Virus record (IMG/VR): IMGVR_UViG_3300039360_000012
Direction: 5' to 3' (one strand)
Origin: a virus
Taxonomy: Duplodnaviria > Heunggongvirae > Uroviricota > Caudoviricetes
DNA length: 5,181 nucleotides
Shown: positions 1-5,181 of the stretch, one piece after another
How the letters are laid out: each line of letters starts with the position of its first letter
How positions within the stretch are numbered: position 1 is the first letter of the stretch
The notes under the pieces: generated by a model
Seen by the model: the letters and a program-made list of their open reading frames with translations, nothing else
What the model was told of the DNA's origin: nothing
Database searches by the model: none
Program-made: the position numbers and the translations under genes

Positions 1-408
1 CGCTTTGAGCACGGTGTGACGGACTGTTACACACTGTTCCGGGATGCTTATCATCTGGCGGGGATTGAGATGCCGGATTTTACGCGGGAGGATGACTGGT
101 GGCGTCACGGTCAGAATCTCTATCTGGATAATCTGGAGGCAACGGGGCTGTATCAGGTGCCGTTGTCAGCGGCGCAGCCGGGCGATGTGCTGCTGTGCTG
201 CTTTGGTTCATCGGTGCCGAATCATGCCGCCATTTACTGTGGTGACGGCGAGCTGCTGCACCATATTCCTGAACAACTGAGCAAACGAGAGAGGTATACC
301 GACAAATGGCAGCGACGCACACACTCCCTCTGGCGTCACCGGGCATGGCACGCATCTGCCTTTACGGGGATTTGCAACGATTTGGCCGCCGCATCGACCT
401 TCGTGTGA
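1..408 (+). CDS. K: Tail assembly protein K, NlpC/P60-family peptidase C-terminal part; 5' end lies upstream of the window (partial)
   Basis: The reading frame is open from nt 1 (cgc ttt gag cac ggt gtg = RFEHGV) with no upstream stop, so the GTG at 16 is an ORF-finder artefact, not the real start. The translation (...HGVTDCYTLFRDAYHLAGIEMPDF...PGDVLLCCFGSSVPNHAAIYCGDGELLHHIPEQL...) matches my recollection of the lambda gpK C-terminus, including a Cys...His arrangement typical of NlpC/P60. Stop is TGA at 406-408. The 3' end overlaps gene I by 103 nt in another frame, as in lambda. Confidence 0.9.
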   Translation, partial: RFEHGVTDCYTLFRDAYHLAGIEMPDFTREDDWWRHGQNLYLDNLEATGLYQVPLSAAQPGDVLLCCFGSSVPNHAAIYCGDGELLHHIPEQLSKRERYTDKWQRRTHSLWRHRAWHASAFTGICNDLAAASTFV

Positions 409-947
409 AAACGGGAGCCGAAGCCATCCGGGCGCTTGCCACGCAGCTACCGTCGTTTCGCCAGAAACTGAATGAGGGCTGGTATCAGGTGCGCATTGCC
501 GGGCGTGATGCAGGCGAAACCGAATTATCTGCCCGTCTTAATGAGCCGCTGGCAAATGGTGCCGTGATCCACATTGTGCCGCGTCTGGCGGGAGCTAAAA
601 GTGGCGGTGTTTTTCAGGCAGTGCTGGGTGCGGCGCTAATTGCTACGGCAATCTGGATGCCAGGAATCAGTATCGCTTTCAGTAACATTCTCTTTTCTAT
701 GGGGGCAGCGATGACGCTTGGTGGTGTCGCACAGATGCTGGCCCCTAAACCCAAAACTCCACGTACACAGACAACGGATAACGGCAAACAGAACACCTAT
801 TTCTCCTCACTGGATAACATGGTTGCCCAGGGCAATGTCCTGCCTGTTCTGTACGGTGAAATGCGCGTGGGGTCACGTGTGGCATCTCAGGAGATCAGCA
901 CGGCAGATGAAGGGGATGGTGGTCAGGTTGTGGTAATTGGGCGGTAA
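306..947 (+). CDS. I: Tail assembly protein I (lambda gpI-like)
   Basis: ATG at 306-308 with a GAGG-containing purine run at 286-294 upstream; stop TAA at 945-947; 213 aa. The N-terminus (MAATHTLPLASPGMARICLYGDLQRFGRRIDLRVKTGAEAIRALATQLP) and C-terminus (KQNTYFSSLDNMVAQGNVLPVLYGEMRVGSRVASQEISTADEGDGGQVVVIGR) closely match lambda gpI as I recall it. It has the hydrophobic/Gly-Ala-rich central segment typical of gpI. The overlap with K is the characteristic lambdoid arrangement. Confidence 0.9.
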   Translation: MAATHTLPLASPGMARICLYGDLQRFGRRIDLRVKTGAEAIRALATQLPSFRQKLNEGWYQVRIAGRDAGETELSARLNEPLANGAVIHIVPRLAGAKSGGVFQAVLGAALIATAIWMPGISIAFSNILFSMGAAMTLGGVAQMLAPKPKTPRTQTTDNGKQNTYFSSLDNMVAQGNVLPVLYGEMRVGSRVASQEISTADEGDGGQVVVIGR

Positions 948-952
948 TATTA

Positions 953-1000
953 TTTACTCATGTTCTAACTGATTTAATATTTATATCGAACACTGATAAT
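953..1000 (+). promoter_or_regulatory. Candidate sigma70-type promoter region for the lipoprotein moron (AT-rich; exact -35/-10 assignment uncertain)
   Basis: The region between the I stop and the lipoprotein start is strongly AT-rich. It contains hexamers resembling -35/-10 elements, e.g. TTTACT (953-958) and TAATAT (975-980) with 16-nt spacing, and GATAAT (995-1000). Several alternative pairings exist, so the exact promoter is not resolved from sequence alone. Confidence 0.25.
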
Positions 1001-1019
1001 TATTCTGTTGGTTAGCTAT

Positions 1020-1358
1020 ATGAACAAAACGATTTTATTCTGCACGATTATTGCCTTAACAGGATGTAAATCTTTGGATTACGTAAAATCCGGAAAACCT
1101 GTAATGGAAGGTAATTCATTAAAAAATATTGATGAATTGTCAGGCTGCATATCCAGACAATGGGCTGGTAATGGAACACCTATAACATCCCTTCCTATTG
1201 AGAATGGGGTAAGCCTTTTAGTTCCACAGGCTATGGGTGGGTATGATGTTGTGCTTGATATCAAAAAAGCAGGAAATGGCAGTAGTTTTACTCTTTATGA
1301 ACGCGTACCAGCATTAACGCCAAAAATTTTTGCTGATAGTGTTAATGCATGTAAATAA
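1020..1358 (+). CDS. Small secreted lipoprotein (moron) inserted between tail genes I and J; predicted outer-membrane lipoprotein, function unknown (candidate lysogenic-conversion / superinfection-exclusion factor)
   Basis: ATG at 1020 gives MNKTILFCTIIALTG|CKS...: a basic n-region (K3), a hydrophobic h-region and a lipobox L-T-G-C (signal peptidase II type). The residue after the lipidated Cys is Lys, not Asp, so outer-membrane sorting is expected under the E. coli +2 rule. Mature protein is about 92 aa with two additional Cys. Stop is TAA at 1356-1358, followed immediately by TAG. The ORF track starts this ORF at an in-frame TTG at 1008, but the ATG at 1020 gives the canonical signal peptide. 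No strong Shine-Dalgarno is visible. Base composition is markedly AT-rich compared with flanking K/I/J. I do not recognise the protein as a named family. Confidence 0.7.
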   Translation: MNKTILFCTIIALTGCKSLDYVKSGKPVMEGNSLKNIDELSGCISRQWAGNGTPITSLPIENGVSLLVPQAMGGYDVVLDIKKAGNGSSFTLYERVPALTPKIFADSVNACK

Positions 1359-1382
1359 TAGTTAATCCTGCCGTAACTCATG

Positions 1383-1410
1383 AGCCGCCTTTTGGGCGGC
1401 TTTGTCGTTT
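1383..1410 (+). terminator. Candidate rho-independent terminator downstream of the lipoprotein gene
   Basis: Inverted repeat AGCCGCC (1383-1389) / GGCGGCT (1395-1401) around a short T-rich loop, followed by TTGTCGTTT. It is GC-rich and the T tract is imperfect. It lies 25 nt after the lipoprotein stop and just upstream of the J ribosome-binding site. Confidence 0.4.
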
Positions 1411-1424
1411 ATGGAGTGTGAGGA

Positions 1425-4400
1425 ATGGGTAAAGGAAGCAGTAAGGGGCATACCCCGCGCGAAGCAAAGGACAACCTGAAGTCCACGCAGTTGCTGAGTG
1501 TGATCGATGCCATCAGCGAAGGGCCGATAGAAGGTCCGGTGGATGGATTAAAAAGCGTGCTGCTGAACAGTACGCCGGTGCTGGACAGTGAAGGGAATAC
1601 CAACATCGCCGGTGTCACGGTGGTGTTCCGGGCAGGTGAGCAGGAGCAGACACCGCCGGAGGGTTTTGAATCCTCCGGATCCGAGACGGTGCTGGGTACG
1701 GAAGTGAAATATGACACGCCGATCACCCGGACCATCACGTCTGCAAACATCGACCGTCTGCGCTTTACCTTCGGTGTGCAGGCTCTGGTGGAAACCACCT
1801 CAAAGGGGGACAGGAATCCGTCGGAAGTCCGCCTGCTGGTTCAGATACAGCGTAACGGTGGCTGGGTGACGGAAAAAGACATCACCATTAAGGGTAAAAC
1901 CACCTCGCAGTATCTGGCCTCGGTGGTGGTGGATAACCTGCCTCCGCGCCCGTTCAATATCCGGATGCGCAGGATGACACCGGACAGCACCACAGACCAG
2001 CTGCAGAACAAAACGCTCTGGTCGTCATACACCGAAATCATCGATGTGAAACAGTGCTACCCGAACACGGCACTGGTCGGTGTGCAGGTGGACTCGGAGC
2101 AGTTCGGCAGCCAGCAGGTGAGCCGTAATTATCATCTTCGCGGGCGCATTCTGCAGGTGCCGTCGAACTATAACCCGCAGACGCGGCAATACAGCGGTAT
2201 CTGGGACGGAACGTTTAAACCGGCATACAGCAACAACATGGCCTGGTGTCTGTGGGATATGCTGACCCATCCGCGCTACGGCATGGGGAAGCGTCTCGGT
2301 GCGGCGGATGTGGACAAATGGGCGCTGTATGTCATCGGCCAGAATTGCGACCAGTCGGTGCCGGATGGCTTTGGTGGCACGGAGCCGCGCATAACCTGTA
2401 ATGCCTGGCTGACCACACAGCGTAAGGCGTGGGATGTTCTCAGTGATTTCTGCTCTGCGATGCGCTGTATGCCGGTATGGAACGGGCAGACGCTGACGTT
2501 CGTGCAGGACCGACCGTCGGATAAGGTGTGGACCTATAACCGCAGTAATGTGGTGATGCCGGATGATGGCGCGCCGTTCCGCTACAGCTTCAGCGCNNNN
2601 NNNNNNNNNNNNNNNNNNNNNNNNNNNNNNNNNNNNNNNNNAACGGCTGGGAGACGGCGACAGAGCTTGTGGAGGACACGCAGGCCATTGCCCGTTACGG
2701 TCGTAACGTCACGAAGATGGATGCCTTTGGCTGTACCAGTCGGGGGCAGGCACACCGCGCCGGGCTGTGGCTGATTAAAACGGAGCTGCTGGAAACGCAG
2801 ACCGTGGACTTCAGCGTGGGCGCAGAAGGGCTTCGCCATGTACCGGGCGATGTCATTGAAATCTGCGATGATGACTATGCGGGTATCAGCACAGGCGGGC
2901 GCGTGCTGGCGGTGAACAGCCAGGCGCGGACACTGACGCTCGACCGTGAAATCATGCTGCCATCCTCCGGCACCACGCTGATAAGCCTGGTTGACGGAAA
3001 TGGCAATCCGGTCAGCGTGGAGGTCCAGTCCGTCACCGACGGCGTGAAGGTGAAAGTGAGCCGTGTTCCTGACGGCGTTGCCGAATACAGCGTGTGGGGG
3101 CTGAAGCTGCCGACGCTGCGCCAGCGCCTGTTCCGCTGTGTGAGTATCCGGGAGAACGATGACGGTACGTATGCCATCACCGCCGTGCAGCATGTACCGG
3201 AAAAAGAAGCCATCGTGGATAACGGGGCGCACTTTGACGGCGACCAGAGCGGCACGGTGAATGGTGTCACGCCGCCAGCGGTGCAGCACCTGACTGCCGA
3301 AGTCACCGCAGACAGCGGGGAATATCAGGTACTGGCGCGATGGGACACGCCGAAGGTGGTGAAGGGGGTGAGCTTTATGCTTCGCCTGACCGTGGCAGCG
3401 GATGACGGCAGTGAGCGGCTTGTCAGCACAGCCCGGACGACGGAAACCACATACCGCTTCAGGCAACTGGCGCTGGGGCGTTACACGCTGACAGTCCGGG
3501 CGGTAAATGCGTGGGGACAGCAGGGCGATCCGGCGTCGGTATCGTTCCGGATTGCCGCACCGTCAGCGCCGTCGCGGATTGAGCTGACTCCGGGCTATTT
3601 TCAGATAACCGCCACGCCGCATCTTGCCGTTTATGACCCGACGGTACAGTTTGAGTTCTGGTTCTCGGAAAAGCGGATTGCGGATATCAGGCAGGTTGAA
3701 ACCACAGCCCGCTATCTTGGCACGGCGCTGTACTGGATAGCTGCCAGTATCAATATCAAGCCGGGCCATGATTATTATTTTTACATCCGCAGTGTGAACA
3801 CCGTTGGCAAATCGGCATTCGTGGAGGCTGTTGGCCAGCCGAGTGATGATGCATCCGGCTATCTGGATTTTTTCAAAGGAGAGATAGGGAAAACCCATCT
3901 GGCTCAGGAGTTGTGGGCGCAGATTGATAACGGTCAGCTTGCGCCTGACCTGGCTGAAATCAGGACGTCCATTACGGATGTCAGCAATGAAATCACGCAG
4001 ACCGTCAATAAGAAACTGGAAGACCAGAGTGCAGCGATCCAGCAGATACAGAAGGTTCAGGTTGATACAAATAATAACCTGAACAGCATGTGGGCTGTGA
4101 AGCTGCAGCAGATGCAGGACGGACGCCTTTATATCGCGGGTATCGGTGCCGGTATTGAGAACACCCCCGACGGTATGCAGAGTCAGGTGCTGCTGGCGGC
4201 AGACAGGATTGCGATGATTAATCCTGCGAATGGCAACACAAAGCCGATGTTTGTTGGTCAGGGCGATCAGATATTCATGAACGAAGTGTTCCTGAAATAC
4301 CTGACGGCTCCCACCATTACCAGCGGCGGTAATCCTCCGGCATTTTCCCTGACACCGGACGGGCGGCTGACGGCGAAAAATGCAGATATCAGCGGTAACG

Positions 4401-4900
4401 TGAATGCGAACTCCGGGACGCTCAACAATGTCACGATTAATCAGAACTGCCGGATTCTGGGAAAACTGTCAGCCAACCAGATTGAAGGCGATATTGTTAA
4501 AACGGTGGGCAAAGCTTTCCCCCGGGACTCCCGTGCACCGGAGCGGTGGCCATCAGGGACCATTACCGTCAGGGTTTATGACGATCAGCCGTTTGACCGG
4601 CAAATTGTTATTCCAGCGGTGGCTTTCAGCGGTGCCAGACATGAACGGGAGAATAGCGATACTTATTCGTCATGCCGCCTGATAGTGAAGAAAAACGGGG
4701 CTGAAATTTATAACCGAACGGCTCTGGATAATACTCTGATTTACACGGGTGTTATTGATATGCCTGCAGGCAGTGGCGTAATGACACTGGAGTTTTCGGT
4801 ATCAGCATGGTGGGTAAATGGCTGGTATCCCACAGCAAGTATCAGCGATTTGCTGGTTGTGGTGATGAAGAAAGCCACCGCAGGCATCAGTATCAGCTGA
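1425..4900 (+). CDS. J: Tail tip / host-specificity (central tail fibre) protein J, lambda gpJ-like; single gene interrupted by a 45-N run (2597-2641) that breaks the apparent frame
   Basis: ATG at 1425 with GGAG at 1413-1416; the N-terminus [54 protein letters not shown] matches lambda gpJ as I recall it. The two ORF-track pieces (1425..2774 and 2669..4900) are one gene: upstream of the N run the frame reads ...[12 protein letters not shown] (through codon gcN at 2595-2597), and directly after it, at 2642, the other frame reads [30 protein letters not shown]..., contiguous gpJ sequence. Stop is TGA at 4898-4900. Total length is about 1158 codons, similar to lambda gpJ (about 1130 aa). The central part contains fibronectin-III-like segments. 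The C-terminal third is recognisably gpJ-like but diverged from lambda. Confidence 0.9.
2597..2641. other. Run of 45 ambiguous bases (N): assembly gap or masked segment inside gene J
   Basis: Directly visible as n x45. Flanking coding frames differ by one nucleotide, so the true length of the missing segment is not 45. Confidence 0.95.
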
Positions 4901-4918: not shown

Positions 4919-4946
4919 GGGCGTCAGAAATGACGCCTTTTTTATT
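4919..4946 (+). terminator. Rho-independent terminator downstream of J
   Basis: Perfect 7-bp stem GGCGTCA (4920-4926) / TGACGCC (4931-4937) with a GAAA tetraloop (4927-4930), followed by TTTTTTATT (4938-4946). It lies 19 nt after the J stop codon. Confidence 0.65.
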
Positions 4947-4967: not shown

Positions 4968-5181
4968 ATGCGTAAATTATGTGCTGTTATTCTGTCCGCA
5001 GTAGTCTGGCTGGTTGCCGCTGGTACGCCAGCGAGCGCAGCAGAGCATCAGTCCACACTAAGCGCCGGGTATCTTCAGGCCCATACTGATATGCCAGGCA
5101 GTGATGACCTGAAGGGCATTAACGTGAAATACCGTTATGAATTTACGGACACGCTGGGGCTGGTGACGTCATTCAGTTATG
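4968..5181 (+). CDS. lom: Lom-like outer-membrane protein (Ail/Lom/OmpX family beta-barrel), 5' part; continues beyond the window end
   Basis: ATG at 4968 is preceded by GAGAGG (4957-4962) at 5-nt spacing. The translation MRKLCAVILSAVVWLVAAGTPASA|AEHQSTLSAGYLQAHTDMPGSDDLKGINVKYRYEFTDTLGLVTSFSY has a Sec signal peptide ending in ASA. The mature start, with alternating aromatic/hydrophobic residues and the motif GINVKYRYE, matches lambda Lom and the Ail family as I recall them. Position immediately downstream of J is the same as lom in lambda. No stop codon before the window end. Confidence 0.8.
   Translation, partial: MRKLCAVILSAVVWLVAAGTPASAAEHQSTLSAGYLQAHTDMPGSDDLKGINVKYRYEFTDTLGLVTSFSY

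What the first reader, a model, noticed from the sequence alone, without database searches (positions are those of the whole stretch)
948..1410. AT-rich compositional island with moron architecture inside the late tail operon
The segment from the I stop to the J ribosome-binding site is visibly AT-rich (the lipoprotein ORF looks to be in the high-30s % GC by eye, against clearly GC-richer K, I and J). It has promoter-like hexamers upstream of the ORF (953-1000) and a GC-rich hairpin downstream (1383-1401). This promoter/ORF/terminator unit with foreign composition, embedded between conserved late genes, is the classic moron arrangement described for lambdoid phages such as HK97 and HK022. It implies horizontal acquisition and expression independent of late transcription, with Q-antiterminated late transcripts expected to read through the hairpin to J.
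Basis: partly seen in the sequence, partly recalled or inferred. Interest (0 to 1): 0.55.

Follow-up and report, generated by a model that had tools for sequence, protein, structure and literature searches.

The report
Lipoprotein cargo gene between tail genes
A small, AT-rich accessory gene for an uncharacterised outer-membrane lipoprotein sits between tail genes I and J of a lambda-like E. coli prophage; it is an ordinary "moron"-type passenger gene, but the hairpin behind it belongs to the phage backbone and an own promoter is not shown.

Summary
The AT-rich island is real. Positions 948-1377 are 34.7% GC, against 56.4 ± 4.4% for other 430-nt windows. It holds a 112-aa lipoprotein ORF (1020-1358), here called X.

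X is an insertion polymorphism. Among 80 prophage contigs with a near-identical I gene:
- 63 have a 59-60-bp I-J spacer, as in lambda.
- 15 carry X.
- 2 carry an antisense sodC gene instead.

X belongs to PHROG 914, a family with three invariant cysteines and no Pfam or PDB relative. It is under purifying selection (pN/pS about 0.17). Homologues occupy other slots, including K-X-I-J and G-T-X-H (the HK97 gp15 slot), and one lies next to a repressor gene.

Two parts of the moron reading are not supported:
- **Hairpin (1382-1402).** It is the pre-J hairpin/T-run/SD element found in X-less lambda, PhiR40_1 and all related tail modules examined.
- **Promoter.** Only 8/12 sigma-70 matches exist in the 24%-GC leader.

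X-linked SNPs span about 883-1417. This suggests transfer by homologous recombination from a phage that already carried I-X-J.

The function is unknown. Superinfection exclusion or another lysogenic conversion is inferred by analogy only.

The parts
306..947 (+). Tail assembly gene I (213 aa). It overlaps the K gene (..408) by 103 nt, as in lambda.
   Evidence: Pfam Lambda_tail_I, E 5e-24; ORF list.
883..947 (+). Left part of the X-linked haplotype block inside I. Positions 883, 935, 941, 944 and 946 are fixed in 15/15 X-bearing loci and absent from 63/63 empty loci. The changes in the last five codons, including the stop (TAA versus TGA), are synonymous.
   Evidence: Site-by-site association; alignment with lambda.
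948..1019 (+). 72-nt leader at 23.6% GC. It has two pairs of weak sigma-70-like hexamers (953-958/975-980 and 973-978/995-1000, each 8/12) and no strong SD before the ATG.
   Evidence: no site of 9/12 or better on the + strand.
1020..1358 (+). ORF X, a 112-aa prelipoprotein of PHROG 914. The signal peptide spans 1020-1064, the lipobox is LTG|C and the lipidated Cys16 codon is 1065-1067. Lys at +2 implies outer-membrane sorting. Cys43 and Cys111 are invariant, which suggests a disulfide.
   Evidence: PHROG 914, E 7e-33; alignments; AF2 model with pLDDT 85; pN/pS 0.17.
1359..1381 (+). 3' untranslated stretch of X, with a second stop (TAG) at 1359-1361. The right end of the DNA that has no counterpart in lambda falls at about 1377.
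   Evidence: Alignment with lambda and PhiR40_1.
1382..1412 (+). Terminator-like hairpin (1382-1402) plus T-rich tail. This is the native pre-J punctuation element. The X-linked allele is AGCCGCC/GGCGGCT and the lambda allele is AACCGCC/GGCGGTT, a compensatory A-T to G-C change.
1413..1424 (+). J ribosome-binding region. GGAG lies at 1413-1416, 8 nt before the ATG. The X-linked SNP at 1417 is the right-most marker of the haplotype block.
   Evidence: Read directly from the sequence; the same 'TTTATGG(A/G)' layout occurs before I and J in related phages.
1425..4900 (+). Tip attachment / host specificity gene J, interrupted by a run of N (2597-2641) that shifts the apparent frame.
   Evidence: Pfam FNIII-A_GpJ, E 1e-42.
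4919..4938 (+). Canonical intrinsic-terminator-like hairpin plus T6 after J. It precedes lom (4968-5181, truncated by the window end), the classic lambda accessory gene.

Best explanation
Positions 948-~1377 are a passenger ('moron-type') gene cassette. It sits in the I-J junction of a lambda-like prophage, upstream of the backbone's own pre-J hairpin.

The cassette encodes X, a 112-aa prelipoprotein of an uncharacterised, widespread prophage family (PHROG 914). After SPase II processing, X is predicted to be anchored to the outer membrane facing the periplasm. It is predicted to form a compact alpha+beta domain, probably held by a Cys43-Cys111 disulfide.

Transcription (inferred):
- X lies on the late strand with no terminator between I and X, so the Q-antiterminated late transcript must include it.
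- A weak promoter in the 24%-GC leader, or in the I 3' end, may additionally express it in lysogens.
- Any such unmodified transcript would stop at the 1382-1402 hairpin and would not reach J.

Function (inferred by analogy only): an envelope-acting lysogenic-conversion factor. The most likely role is superinfection exclusion, by blocking a receptor or the incoming tail tip or DNA-injection step in the periplasm.

Origin: in this lineage the block arrived by homologous recombination with another lambdoid phage that already had I-X-J, because X-specific SNPs run from about 883 to 1417.
For: Insertion polymorphism:
- Lambda and PhiR40_1 lack X.
- Of 80 loci with I at >=91% identity, 63 are empty, 15 carry X and 2 carry sodC.
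- X occupies 349 places in 337 of 5426 complete E. coli genomes. This compares with about 8576 places that match the lambda I-J junction query, a count that also includes partial matches.

Composition.

X is a real, selected gene:
- PHROG 914, E 7e-33.
- 121 family representatives, with three invariant Cys.
- AF2 model with pLDDT 85.
- pN/pS about 0.17 over 14 alleles.

Mobility of the family:
- K-X-I-J in Klebsiella and Kluyvera prophages and in the isolated phage Fraca.
- G-T-X-H.
- Next to a repressor-type HTH gene in a Burkholderia prophage; in an early region; in a head region.

The hairpin is backbone.

Haplotype block.

Analogues with known exclusion roles are HK97 gp15, Cor and Ltp (PMC3594210; PMC4936722).
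Against: - No expression data. The promoter matches are only 8/12 and are no better than AT-rich chance.
- X shows no association with a particular J receptor-binding domain, which a receptor-blocking partner might predict. It occurs with at least three J C-terminal types: 4 of 25, 2 of 14 and a singleton.
- The hairpin allele is perfectly linked to X (15/15 versus 0/63). Import of the hairpin together with X cannot be strictly excluded.
Confidence: 0.7

Rival explanations
1. Classic autonomous moron. The promoter (953-1000), ORF and its own imported terminator (1383-1401) were acquired as one unit. The unit is expressed from the repressed prophage independently of late transcription.
For: - The composition is foreign.
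- Four 8/12 promoter-like sites lie in the leader, more than in 97% of shuffles.
- X is followed by a terminator-like hairpin in every context examined.
- The hairpin allele is perfectly linked to X.
- A remote homologue sits next to a repressor gene, a typical lysogen-expressed position.
Against: - X-less relatives have the homologous hairpin at the same place. The pre-J hairpin is present whatever the position of X.
- No promoter site reaches 9/12, while 21% of shuffles give a better site.
- K-X-I-J relatives have only 32 nt plus an SD upstream of X, and two of them have no promoter-like site.
Confidence: 0.3
2. X is not a mere passenger. It is a functional partner of the tail-tip module, in particular of gpI, and is expressed with the late genes. 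For example, it could act in the envelope during infection, lysis or release, or neutralise incoming gpI or tail-tip proteins of related phages.
For: - X-family genes lie directly beside an I gene in several divergent lineages: I-X-J in E. coli; K-X-I in Klebsiella, Kluyvera, L154 and Fraca.
- In Pseudomonas phage AH14a, p33 is an X-family member (hhalign E 3.5e-6; BFVD TM 0.70/0.83). It precedes an I paralogue far from the tail module.
- The satellite AH14b keeps an I gene plus a lipoprotein gene.
Against: - Remote family members lie in early, immunity or head regions with no I gene nearby.
- Enterobacter-type phages place X between T and H.
- About 79% of close relatives, and lambda itself, do without X.
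- The slots flanking I also hold unrelated cargo such as sodC, Bro/Ant/Arc genes and other lipoproteins. A cargo hot spot therefore explains the adjacency.
- AH14a p83 and AH14b p21 are not convincingly of the X family.
Confidence: 0.15
3. The ancestral state is I-X-J, and the 60-bp 'empty' spacer of lambda is a deletion scar. On this view the island is not a recent insertion.
For: - The empty spacer starts with an ATG that overlaps the I stop (TGATG).
- In one common allele, its first 16 nt align with the first 19 nt of X (ATGA--AAAACG-TTTTAT). Only 2.4% of shuffles score as well.
- Both states share the hairpin and the J leader.
Against: - For the lambda allele the same comparison is not significant: 31% of shuffles reach the score. 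The allele was chosen post hoc.
- The AT-rich composition and the varied positions of X in other phages argue for gain rather than ancestry.
Confidence: 0.12
4. Non-functional AT-rich junk or a decaying pseudogene; the ORF is fortuitous.
For: RefSeq calls it hypothetical. Some copies are frameshifted or truncated (P0002, P0018, L065-L067, H120).
Against: - pN/pS is 0.17.
- The family is conserved down to about 25% identity, with an invariant lipobox Cys and two further invariant Cys.
- The fold prediction is confident.
- 66 intact copies were found in the loci fetched.
Confidence: 0.03

Closest known systems
Morons of lambdoid phages (HK97 gene 15; lambda lom and bor), as defined by Juhala et al. 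2000 and reviewed in PMC3594210
   Same: - X is extra DNA between conserved late genes and is absent from close relatives.
- Its GC content deviates from the flanks.
- It encodes a small envelope protein and is followed by a terminator-like hairpin.
- The family also occupies the very G/T-H slot where HK97 gp15 sits.
   Different: - No convincing promoter of its own.
- The downstream hairpin is the resident I-J element, not an imported terminator.
- Prophage expression is not shown.
- The protein is unrelated to gp15 (an inner-membrane protein), Lom (a beta-barrel) or Bor.
Phage exclusion lipoproteins: Cor (phi80/N15/HK022), T5 Llp, Streptococcus TP-J34 Ltp
   Same: They are small phage-encoded lipoproteins encoded next to tail or receptor-binding genes. 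This is the basis of the functional guess (PMC3594210; PMC4936722).
   Different: - No sequence or profile match to any Pfam, PADLOC or PDB entry.
- No linkage to a particular J receptor-binding domain.
- Exclusion has not been tested.
Prophage sodC cargo in lambdoid tail regions (Gifsy-2 sodCI type)
   Same: It occupies the same I-J junction in 2 of 80 related E. coli prophage contigs. Gifsy-2 sodCI is highly expressed from the prophage (PMC7067206). Both show that the I-J junction is a cargo hot spot.
   Different: sodC is antisense to the late operon, replaces the pre-J hairpin region and has a known enzymatic function. X is sense-oriented and of unknown function. The position of sodCI within Gifsy-2 is from my memory and was not checked here.
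DUF3568/Flpp3, DUF302 and BamC N-terminal domain folds

Membership tests
Moron (Juhala/Hendrix definition, PMC3594210) | Extra DNA between genes whose order is conserved, absent from closely related phages | tested here: met
   Lambda, PhiR40_1 and 63 of 80 loci with a near-identical I gene have a 59-60-bp I-J spacer in place of the 477-bp one.
Moron (Juhala/Hendrix definition, PMC3594210) | Base composition different from the flanking genes | tested here: met
   GC is 0.347 (GC3 0.25) against 0.56 (GC3 0.55-0.72), about 5 sd below other windows.
Moron (Juhala/Hendrix definition, PMC3594210) | Own promoter | tested here: inconclusive
   Only 8/12 matches exist and none passes the 9/12 scan. 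21% of shuffled leaders contain a better site. Some K-X-I homologues have no promoter-like site upstream.
Moron (Juhala/Hendrix definition, PMC3594210) | Own terminator | tested here: inconclusive
   A terminator-like hairpin follows the ORF, but it is homologous to the hairpin of X-less relatives at the same position. Only the allele is X-linked.
Moron (Juhala/Hendrix definition, PMC3594210) | Expressed from the repressed prophage | not testable with these tools
   No transcript or protein data were available. This needs RNA-seq or 5' RACE on a lysogen.
Moron (Juhala/Hendrix definition, PMC3594210) | Horizontal spread: the same gene at different positions in different phages | tested here: met
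   Arrangements seen are I-X-J, K-X-I-J and G-T-X-H, plus sites near a repressor, in an early region and in a head region.
Bacterial lipoprotein (SPase II substrate) | N-terminal signal peptide ending in a lipobox [LVI][ASTVI][GAS]C | tested here: met
   MNK-TILFCTIIA-LTG|C. The Cys is invariant in 62 of 62 aligned family members. Lipidation itself was not tested.
PHROG 914 | Significant full-length match to the family profile | tested here: met
   E 7.3e-33, residues 1-112 on profile positions 1-118 of 118. The family has no assigned function.
Cor / Llp / Bor phage lipoproteins | Sequence or structural homology | tested here: not met
Intrinsic (Rho-independent) terminator | G+C-rich stem-loop followed directly by a U-rich tract | tested here: met
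   9-bp stem with 6 G-C pairs and tail UUUGUCGUUUAU. The U-tract is interrupted, so this is a weaker form than the T7-T8 versions in Klebsiella and Fraca phages. Termination activity is not testable here.

The most novel reading that the evidence does not exclude
The PHROG-914 lipoproteins are a new, widespread class of prophage exclusion factors. They would act in the periplasm against the incoming tail tip of lambda-like siphophages, with gpI or the tape-measure C-terminus as target. That would explain why they are so often encoded directly beside gene I, including beside an I paralogue outside the tail module in Pseudomonas phage AH14a.
Probability: 0.15. Interest if true: 0.6.

Novelty: new member of a known kind. 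Interest (0 to 1): 0.3.

Why it matters
About 6% of complete E. coli genomes carry this gene, including O104:H4 outbreak strains, O55:H7 CB9615 and the K1 strain S88. About 4% of places matching the lambda I-J junction query hold it (349 of about 8576). It is annotated only as 'hypothetical'.

If X is an exclusion or envelope-remodelling factor, it would affect phage susceptibility (phage therapy, Stx-phage spread) or host fitness.

The comparison also shows two general points:
- The I-J and K-I junctions are cargo hot spots.
- A hairpin/T-run/SD element punctuates these late operons regardless of cargo. Such hairpins should therefore not be read as evidence of an imported terminator.

The finding itself is otherwise an ordinary example of a well-known phenomenon.

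Tried and rejected
1. **Rfam scan of the window.** Only a chance miRNA hit (E 0.83) fell over the leader, so there is no known RNA element.
2. **NCBIfam.** Only a VirB7 signal-peptide-level hit (E 0.08, below cutoff) appeared; rejected.
3. **PADLOC.** No defence-system model matched.
4. **Link between X and the J receptor-binding domain.** X occurs with at least three J C-terminal types in roughly background proportions, so the link is rejected on this small sample.
5. **afdb50 fold search.** The library was unavailable.
6. **Genome-contig scan.** It returned only one locus, from Kluyvera.
7. **Remote family members in viral contigs.**
   - The A4 alignment was too divergent to seed a scan.
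   - P0050 found nothing.
   - P0036 gave one locus.
8. **X homologues in isolated phages.** There was no near-identical DNA match. tblastn found only Fraca and LMessi, at about 30% identity.
9. **The empty lambda spacer as a remnant of the X start.** The test was not significant for the lambda allele (p 0.31) and marginal for another allele (p 0.024, chosen post hoc).
10. **AH14a p83 and AH14b p21 lipoproteins as X-family members.** hhalign probability for p83 was only 43%, so p83 was not accepted; p21 was not compared directly and is linked to p83 only through the AH14 paper's homology statement.
11. **Literature searches.** Searches for this gene and for a lambda I-J terminator found nothing specific.

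Full report
**Anatomy of the window**

The window is a lambda-like tail-tip module:
- K (to position 408; NlpC/P60 domain).
- I (306-947; Lambda_tail_I).
- An unannotated-type ORF, here called X (1020-1358).
- J (1425-4900; FNIII-A_GpJ), broken by a run of N at 2597-2641.
- A terminator-like hairpin (4919-4938).
- The start of lom (from 4968).

An identical stretch lies in E. coli STEC1575, where RefSeq calls X 'hypothetical protein'.

**Check of the observation**

The compositional island is real.
- GC is 0.236 in the 72-nt leader (948-1019), 0.366 in the ORF (GC3 0.25) and 0.347 over 948-1377.
- GC is 0.56-0.57 in K, I and J (GC3 0.55-0.72).
- Other 430-nt windows average 0.564 ± 0.044, with a minimum of 0.458.

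The hairpin is real. It spans 1382-1402 with 9 pairs, 6 of them G-C, and a T-rich tail. Its centroid energy is -15.4 kcal/mol and its z-score is -2.3.

The promoter-like hexamers exist only as 8/12 matches: TTTACT-16-TAATAT at 953/975 and TTTAAT-16-GATAAT at 973/995.
- The standard 9/12 scan finds nothing on the + strand here.
- The number of 8/12 hits (four) exceeds 97% of shuffles of the leader.
- However, 21% of shuffles contain a better site.
- The promoter is therefore neither shown nor excluded.

**Is it an insertion?**

Yes, relative to most relatives. Lambda and PhiR40_1 go from the I stop to the J start in 60 bp.

I fetched 80 viral contigs whose I gene is at least 91% identical to the window's and measured the I-J spacer:
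- 63 have the 59-60-bp form.
- 15 have the 477/478-bp X form.
- 2 (L117, L142) have a spacer of about 698 bp carrying an antisense Cu,Zn-superoxide dismutase gene.

In complete E. coli genomes, X occupies 349 places in 337 of 5426 genomes. About 8576 places match the lambda-type I-J junction query; this count also includes partial matches. X-bearing strains include O104:H4, O55:H7 CB9615 and S88.

**The hairpin is backbone, not cargo**

X-less spacers read ...GAAACCGCC-TSCG-GGCGGTTTTRTCRTTTATGGAGCRTGASGA-ATG. The window reads ...GAGCCGCC-TTTT(G)-GGCGGCTTTGTCGTTTATGGAGTGTGAGGA-ATG. The two share the stem core, the distance to J and the downstream leader.

The third stem pair differs by a compensatory change: A-T in lambda and G-C in the window.

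All other lambda-like tail modules I examined have a G+C-rich hairpin plus T-run plus 'ATGG(A/G)' (the SD) 10-25 nt before the J start. This holds although X lies elsewhere in them. The phages are Klebsiella L004, Kluyvera L008, L068, L069, L077 and the isolated phage Fraca. The stems differ in sequence but are fully complementary.

One caveat remains: the X-type hairpin allele is perfectly linked to X (15/15 versus 0/63).

**Boundaries**

DNA with no counterpart in lambda runs from 948 to about 1377. X-specific SNPs extend further:
- Into I, at window positions 883, 935, 941, 944 and 946; those in the last five codons, including TAA versus TGA, are synonymous.
- To the right, through the hairpin up to 1417, 8 nt before the J ATG.
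- None lie in the first 300 nt of J.

This pattern is what homologous exchange with a diverged phage already carrying I-X-J would leave. The primary illegitimate insertion therefore happened elsewhere or earlier.

**The gene product**

X starts MNKTILFCTIIALTG|C, a canonical lipobox. Lys at +2 implies outer-membrane sorting by established Lol rules.

It matches PHROG 914 (unknown function) over its full length, E 7e-33. Pfam, NCBIfam, PADLOC and PDB sequence searches found nothing meaningful.

A profile search of 1.84 billion representatives found 121 relatives, nearly all 105-125 aa. In an alignment of 62 of them, the lipobox Cys, Cys43 and Cys111 are invariant, and Pro27, Trp48 and Gly63 nearly so.

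Among 66 intact E. coli-type copies (14 alleles) there are 10 synonymous and 6 non-synonymous polymorphic sites. This gives pN/pS of about 0.17. X is a real gene under purifying selection.

**Where the family lives**

- Homologues at 50-60% identity sit between K and I in Klebsiella, Kluyvera and related prophages. There, X lies 32 nt behind K with a strong SD and has its own canonical terminator.
- Others sit between T and the tape-measure gene in Enterobacter-type prophages. This is exactly the slot of HK97 gene 15, the founding moron.
- More distant members:
  - Between K and I in the isolated phage Fraca, behind a second lipoprotein gene.
  - Behind a 4-kb Arc/Bro/ORF6N cargo island in L154.
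  - Beside a second copy of gene I far from the tail genes in Pseudomonas phage AH14a. There, p33 gives hhalign E 3.5e-6 and a BFVD match with TM 0.70/0.83.
  - Next to a repressor-type HTH gene in a Burkholderia prophage, in an early region, and among head genes.

The family is thus a mobile prophage accessory gene. It is frequently, but not always, adjacent to gene I.

**How it most likely works**

- Shown: X is a conserved lipoprotein gene of foreign composition, variably present, sense-oriented in the late operon, and followed by the resident terminator-like hairpin.
- Inferred, late expression: late transcripts from pR' (Q-modified) must traverse X and the hairpin to reach J. Lambda itself has the hairpin before its essential J gene.
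- Inferred, lysogen expression: any unmodified transcript that starts in the leader would end at 1403-1412. That would express X alone.
- Inferred by analogy only (gp15, Cor, Llp, Ltp; PMC3594210, PMC4936722): X modifies the envelope of the lysogen, most plausibly to exclude superinfecting phages.

Two results count against a simple receptor-masking partner of J. X occurs with at least three J C-terminal types, at roughly background frequencies. It also matches no known exclusion protein.

**Verdict**

Two of its three architectural pillars do not hold up: the imported terminator is contradicted and the own promoter is unproven.

This is a new, uncharacterised member of a well-known class of phage accessory genes at a recognised type of cargo hot spot. 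Interest is modest. It would rise if the family proved to be a new exclusion mechanism linked to gpI.

Noticed in passing
L117 2694-3390 (also L142): In 2 of 80 related prophage contigs, the same I-J junction carries an antisense periplasmic Cu,Zn superoxide dismutase gene (sodC; Pfam Sod_Cu, E 2e-32) instead of X. A hairpin lies directly after the I stop and the usual pre-J hairpin is absent. The I-J junction is therefore a multi-cargo hot spot.
   Followed up: partly
L004 6367-6401 and 7018-7053; L162 4355-4391 and 5010-5046; L008, L068, L069, L077, L078 and L154: Every lambda-like tail module examined has a G+C-rich hairpin, a T-run and 'ATGG(A/G)' (the SD) just before the J start. The K-X-I-J phages have a second copy just before the I start. 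In Fraca the two copies are nearly identical (AGCCACC-TTCG/CCCG-GGTGGCT + T7). Strong canonical terminators inside a late operon imply obligatory antitermination. They may also act as recombination or punctuation sites.
   Followed up: partly
L001 668-740 (lambda 15441-15513): In lambda-type 'empty' spacers, an ATG overlaps the I stop (TGATG). It opens a 22-codon mini-ORF (MQNVLCETACGRFCHLWSVRNG) that runs through the hairpin and stops at TAA just inside the J start (ATGGGTAA). This layout would allow I-to-J translational coupling. In one allele its first 16 nt weakly resemble the start of X (p 0.02-0.3).
   Followed up: partly
window 2597-2641: A run of 45 N inside J (an assembly or scaffold gap) shifts the apparent reading frame, so J appears as two ORFs (1425-2774 and 2669-4900). 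The identical STEC1575 copy has an intact 3396-nt J.
   Followed up: yes
L003 (NZ_CP116044.1 2562762-2591787): In STEC1575 the identical segment lies in a rearranged prophage at the Qin (ydfJ/ydfK) locus. M-L-K-I-X-J-lom' runs in one direction. The H-T-G-V-U-Z-head genes are inverted next to it. Truncated lom and tape-measure fragments mark the breakpoints. The prophage is probably defective.
   Followed up: no
window 1326-1355, - strand: The best sigma-70-like match near the island is on the opposite strand (TTTACA-18-AAAAAT, 9/12). It points antisense into the 3' end of X. This is probably chance in AT-rich DNA.
   Followed up: no
L162 3647-3994: Phage Fraca has a second, unrelated lipoprotein ORF (MRKFLSILACSLIIVG|C..., 115 aa) between K and the X homologue. 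The record annotates it from an internal start (3725). Two lipoprotein genes therefore lie in tandem before gene I.
   Followed up: no
L155 1638-2037 (AH14a p33/p34), L155 999-1580 (p32); L157 1998-3062: In Pseudomonas phage AH14a, the X-family ORF p33 is annotated without a signal peptide, and the 37-aa p34 lies directly upstream, so the start may be mis-called or frameshifted. p33 precedes a paralogue of gene I far from the tail module. The satellite AH14b keeps only an I gene plus a lipoprotein gene.
   Followed up: partly
L070 4950-5003: In the G-T-X-H type prophages, the SD of X (GGAGG) is paired in a hairpin (CCTCC-TTACTTCT-GGAGG) directly before the start codon. This may be a translational control element.
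   Followed up: no
L068 1083-4898; L154 1619-5592: The K-I junction of some prophages holds about 4 kb of cargo (Arc-like repressor, Bro-N/KilA-N/ORF6N antirepressor-like genes, an HTH regulator) immediately upstream of the X homologue.
   Followed up: no
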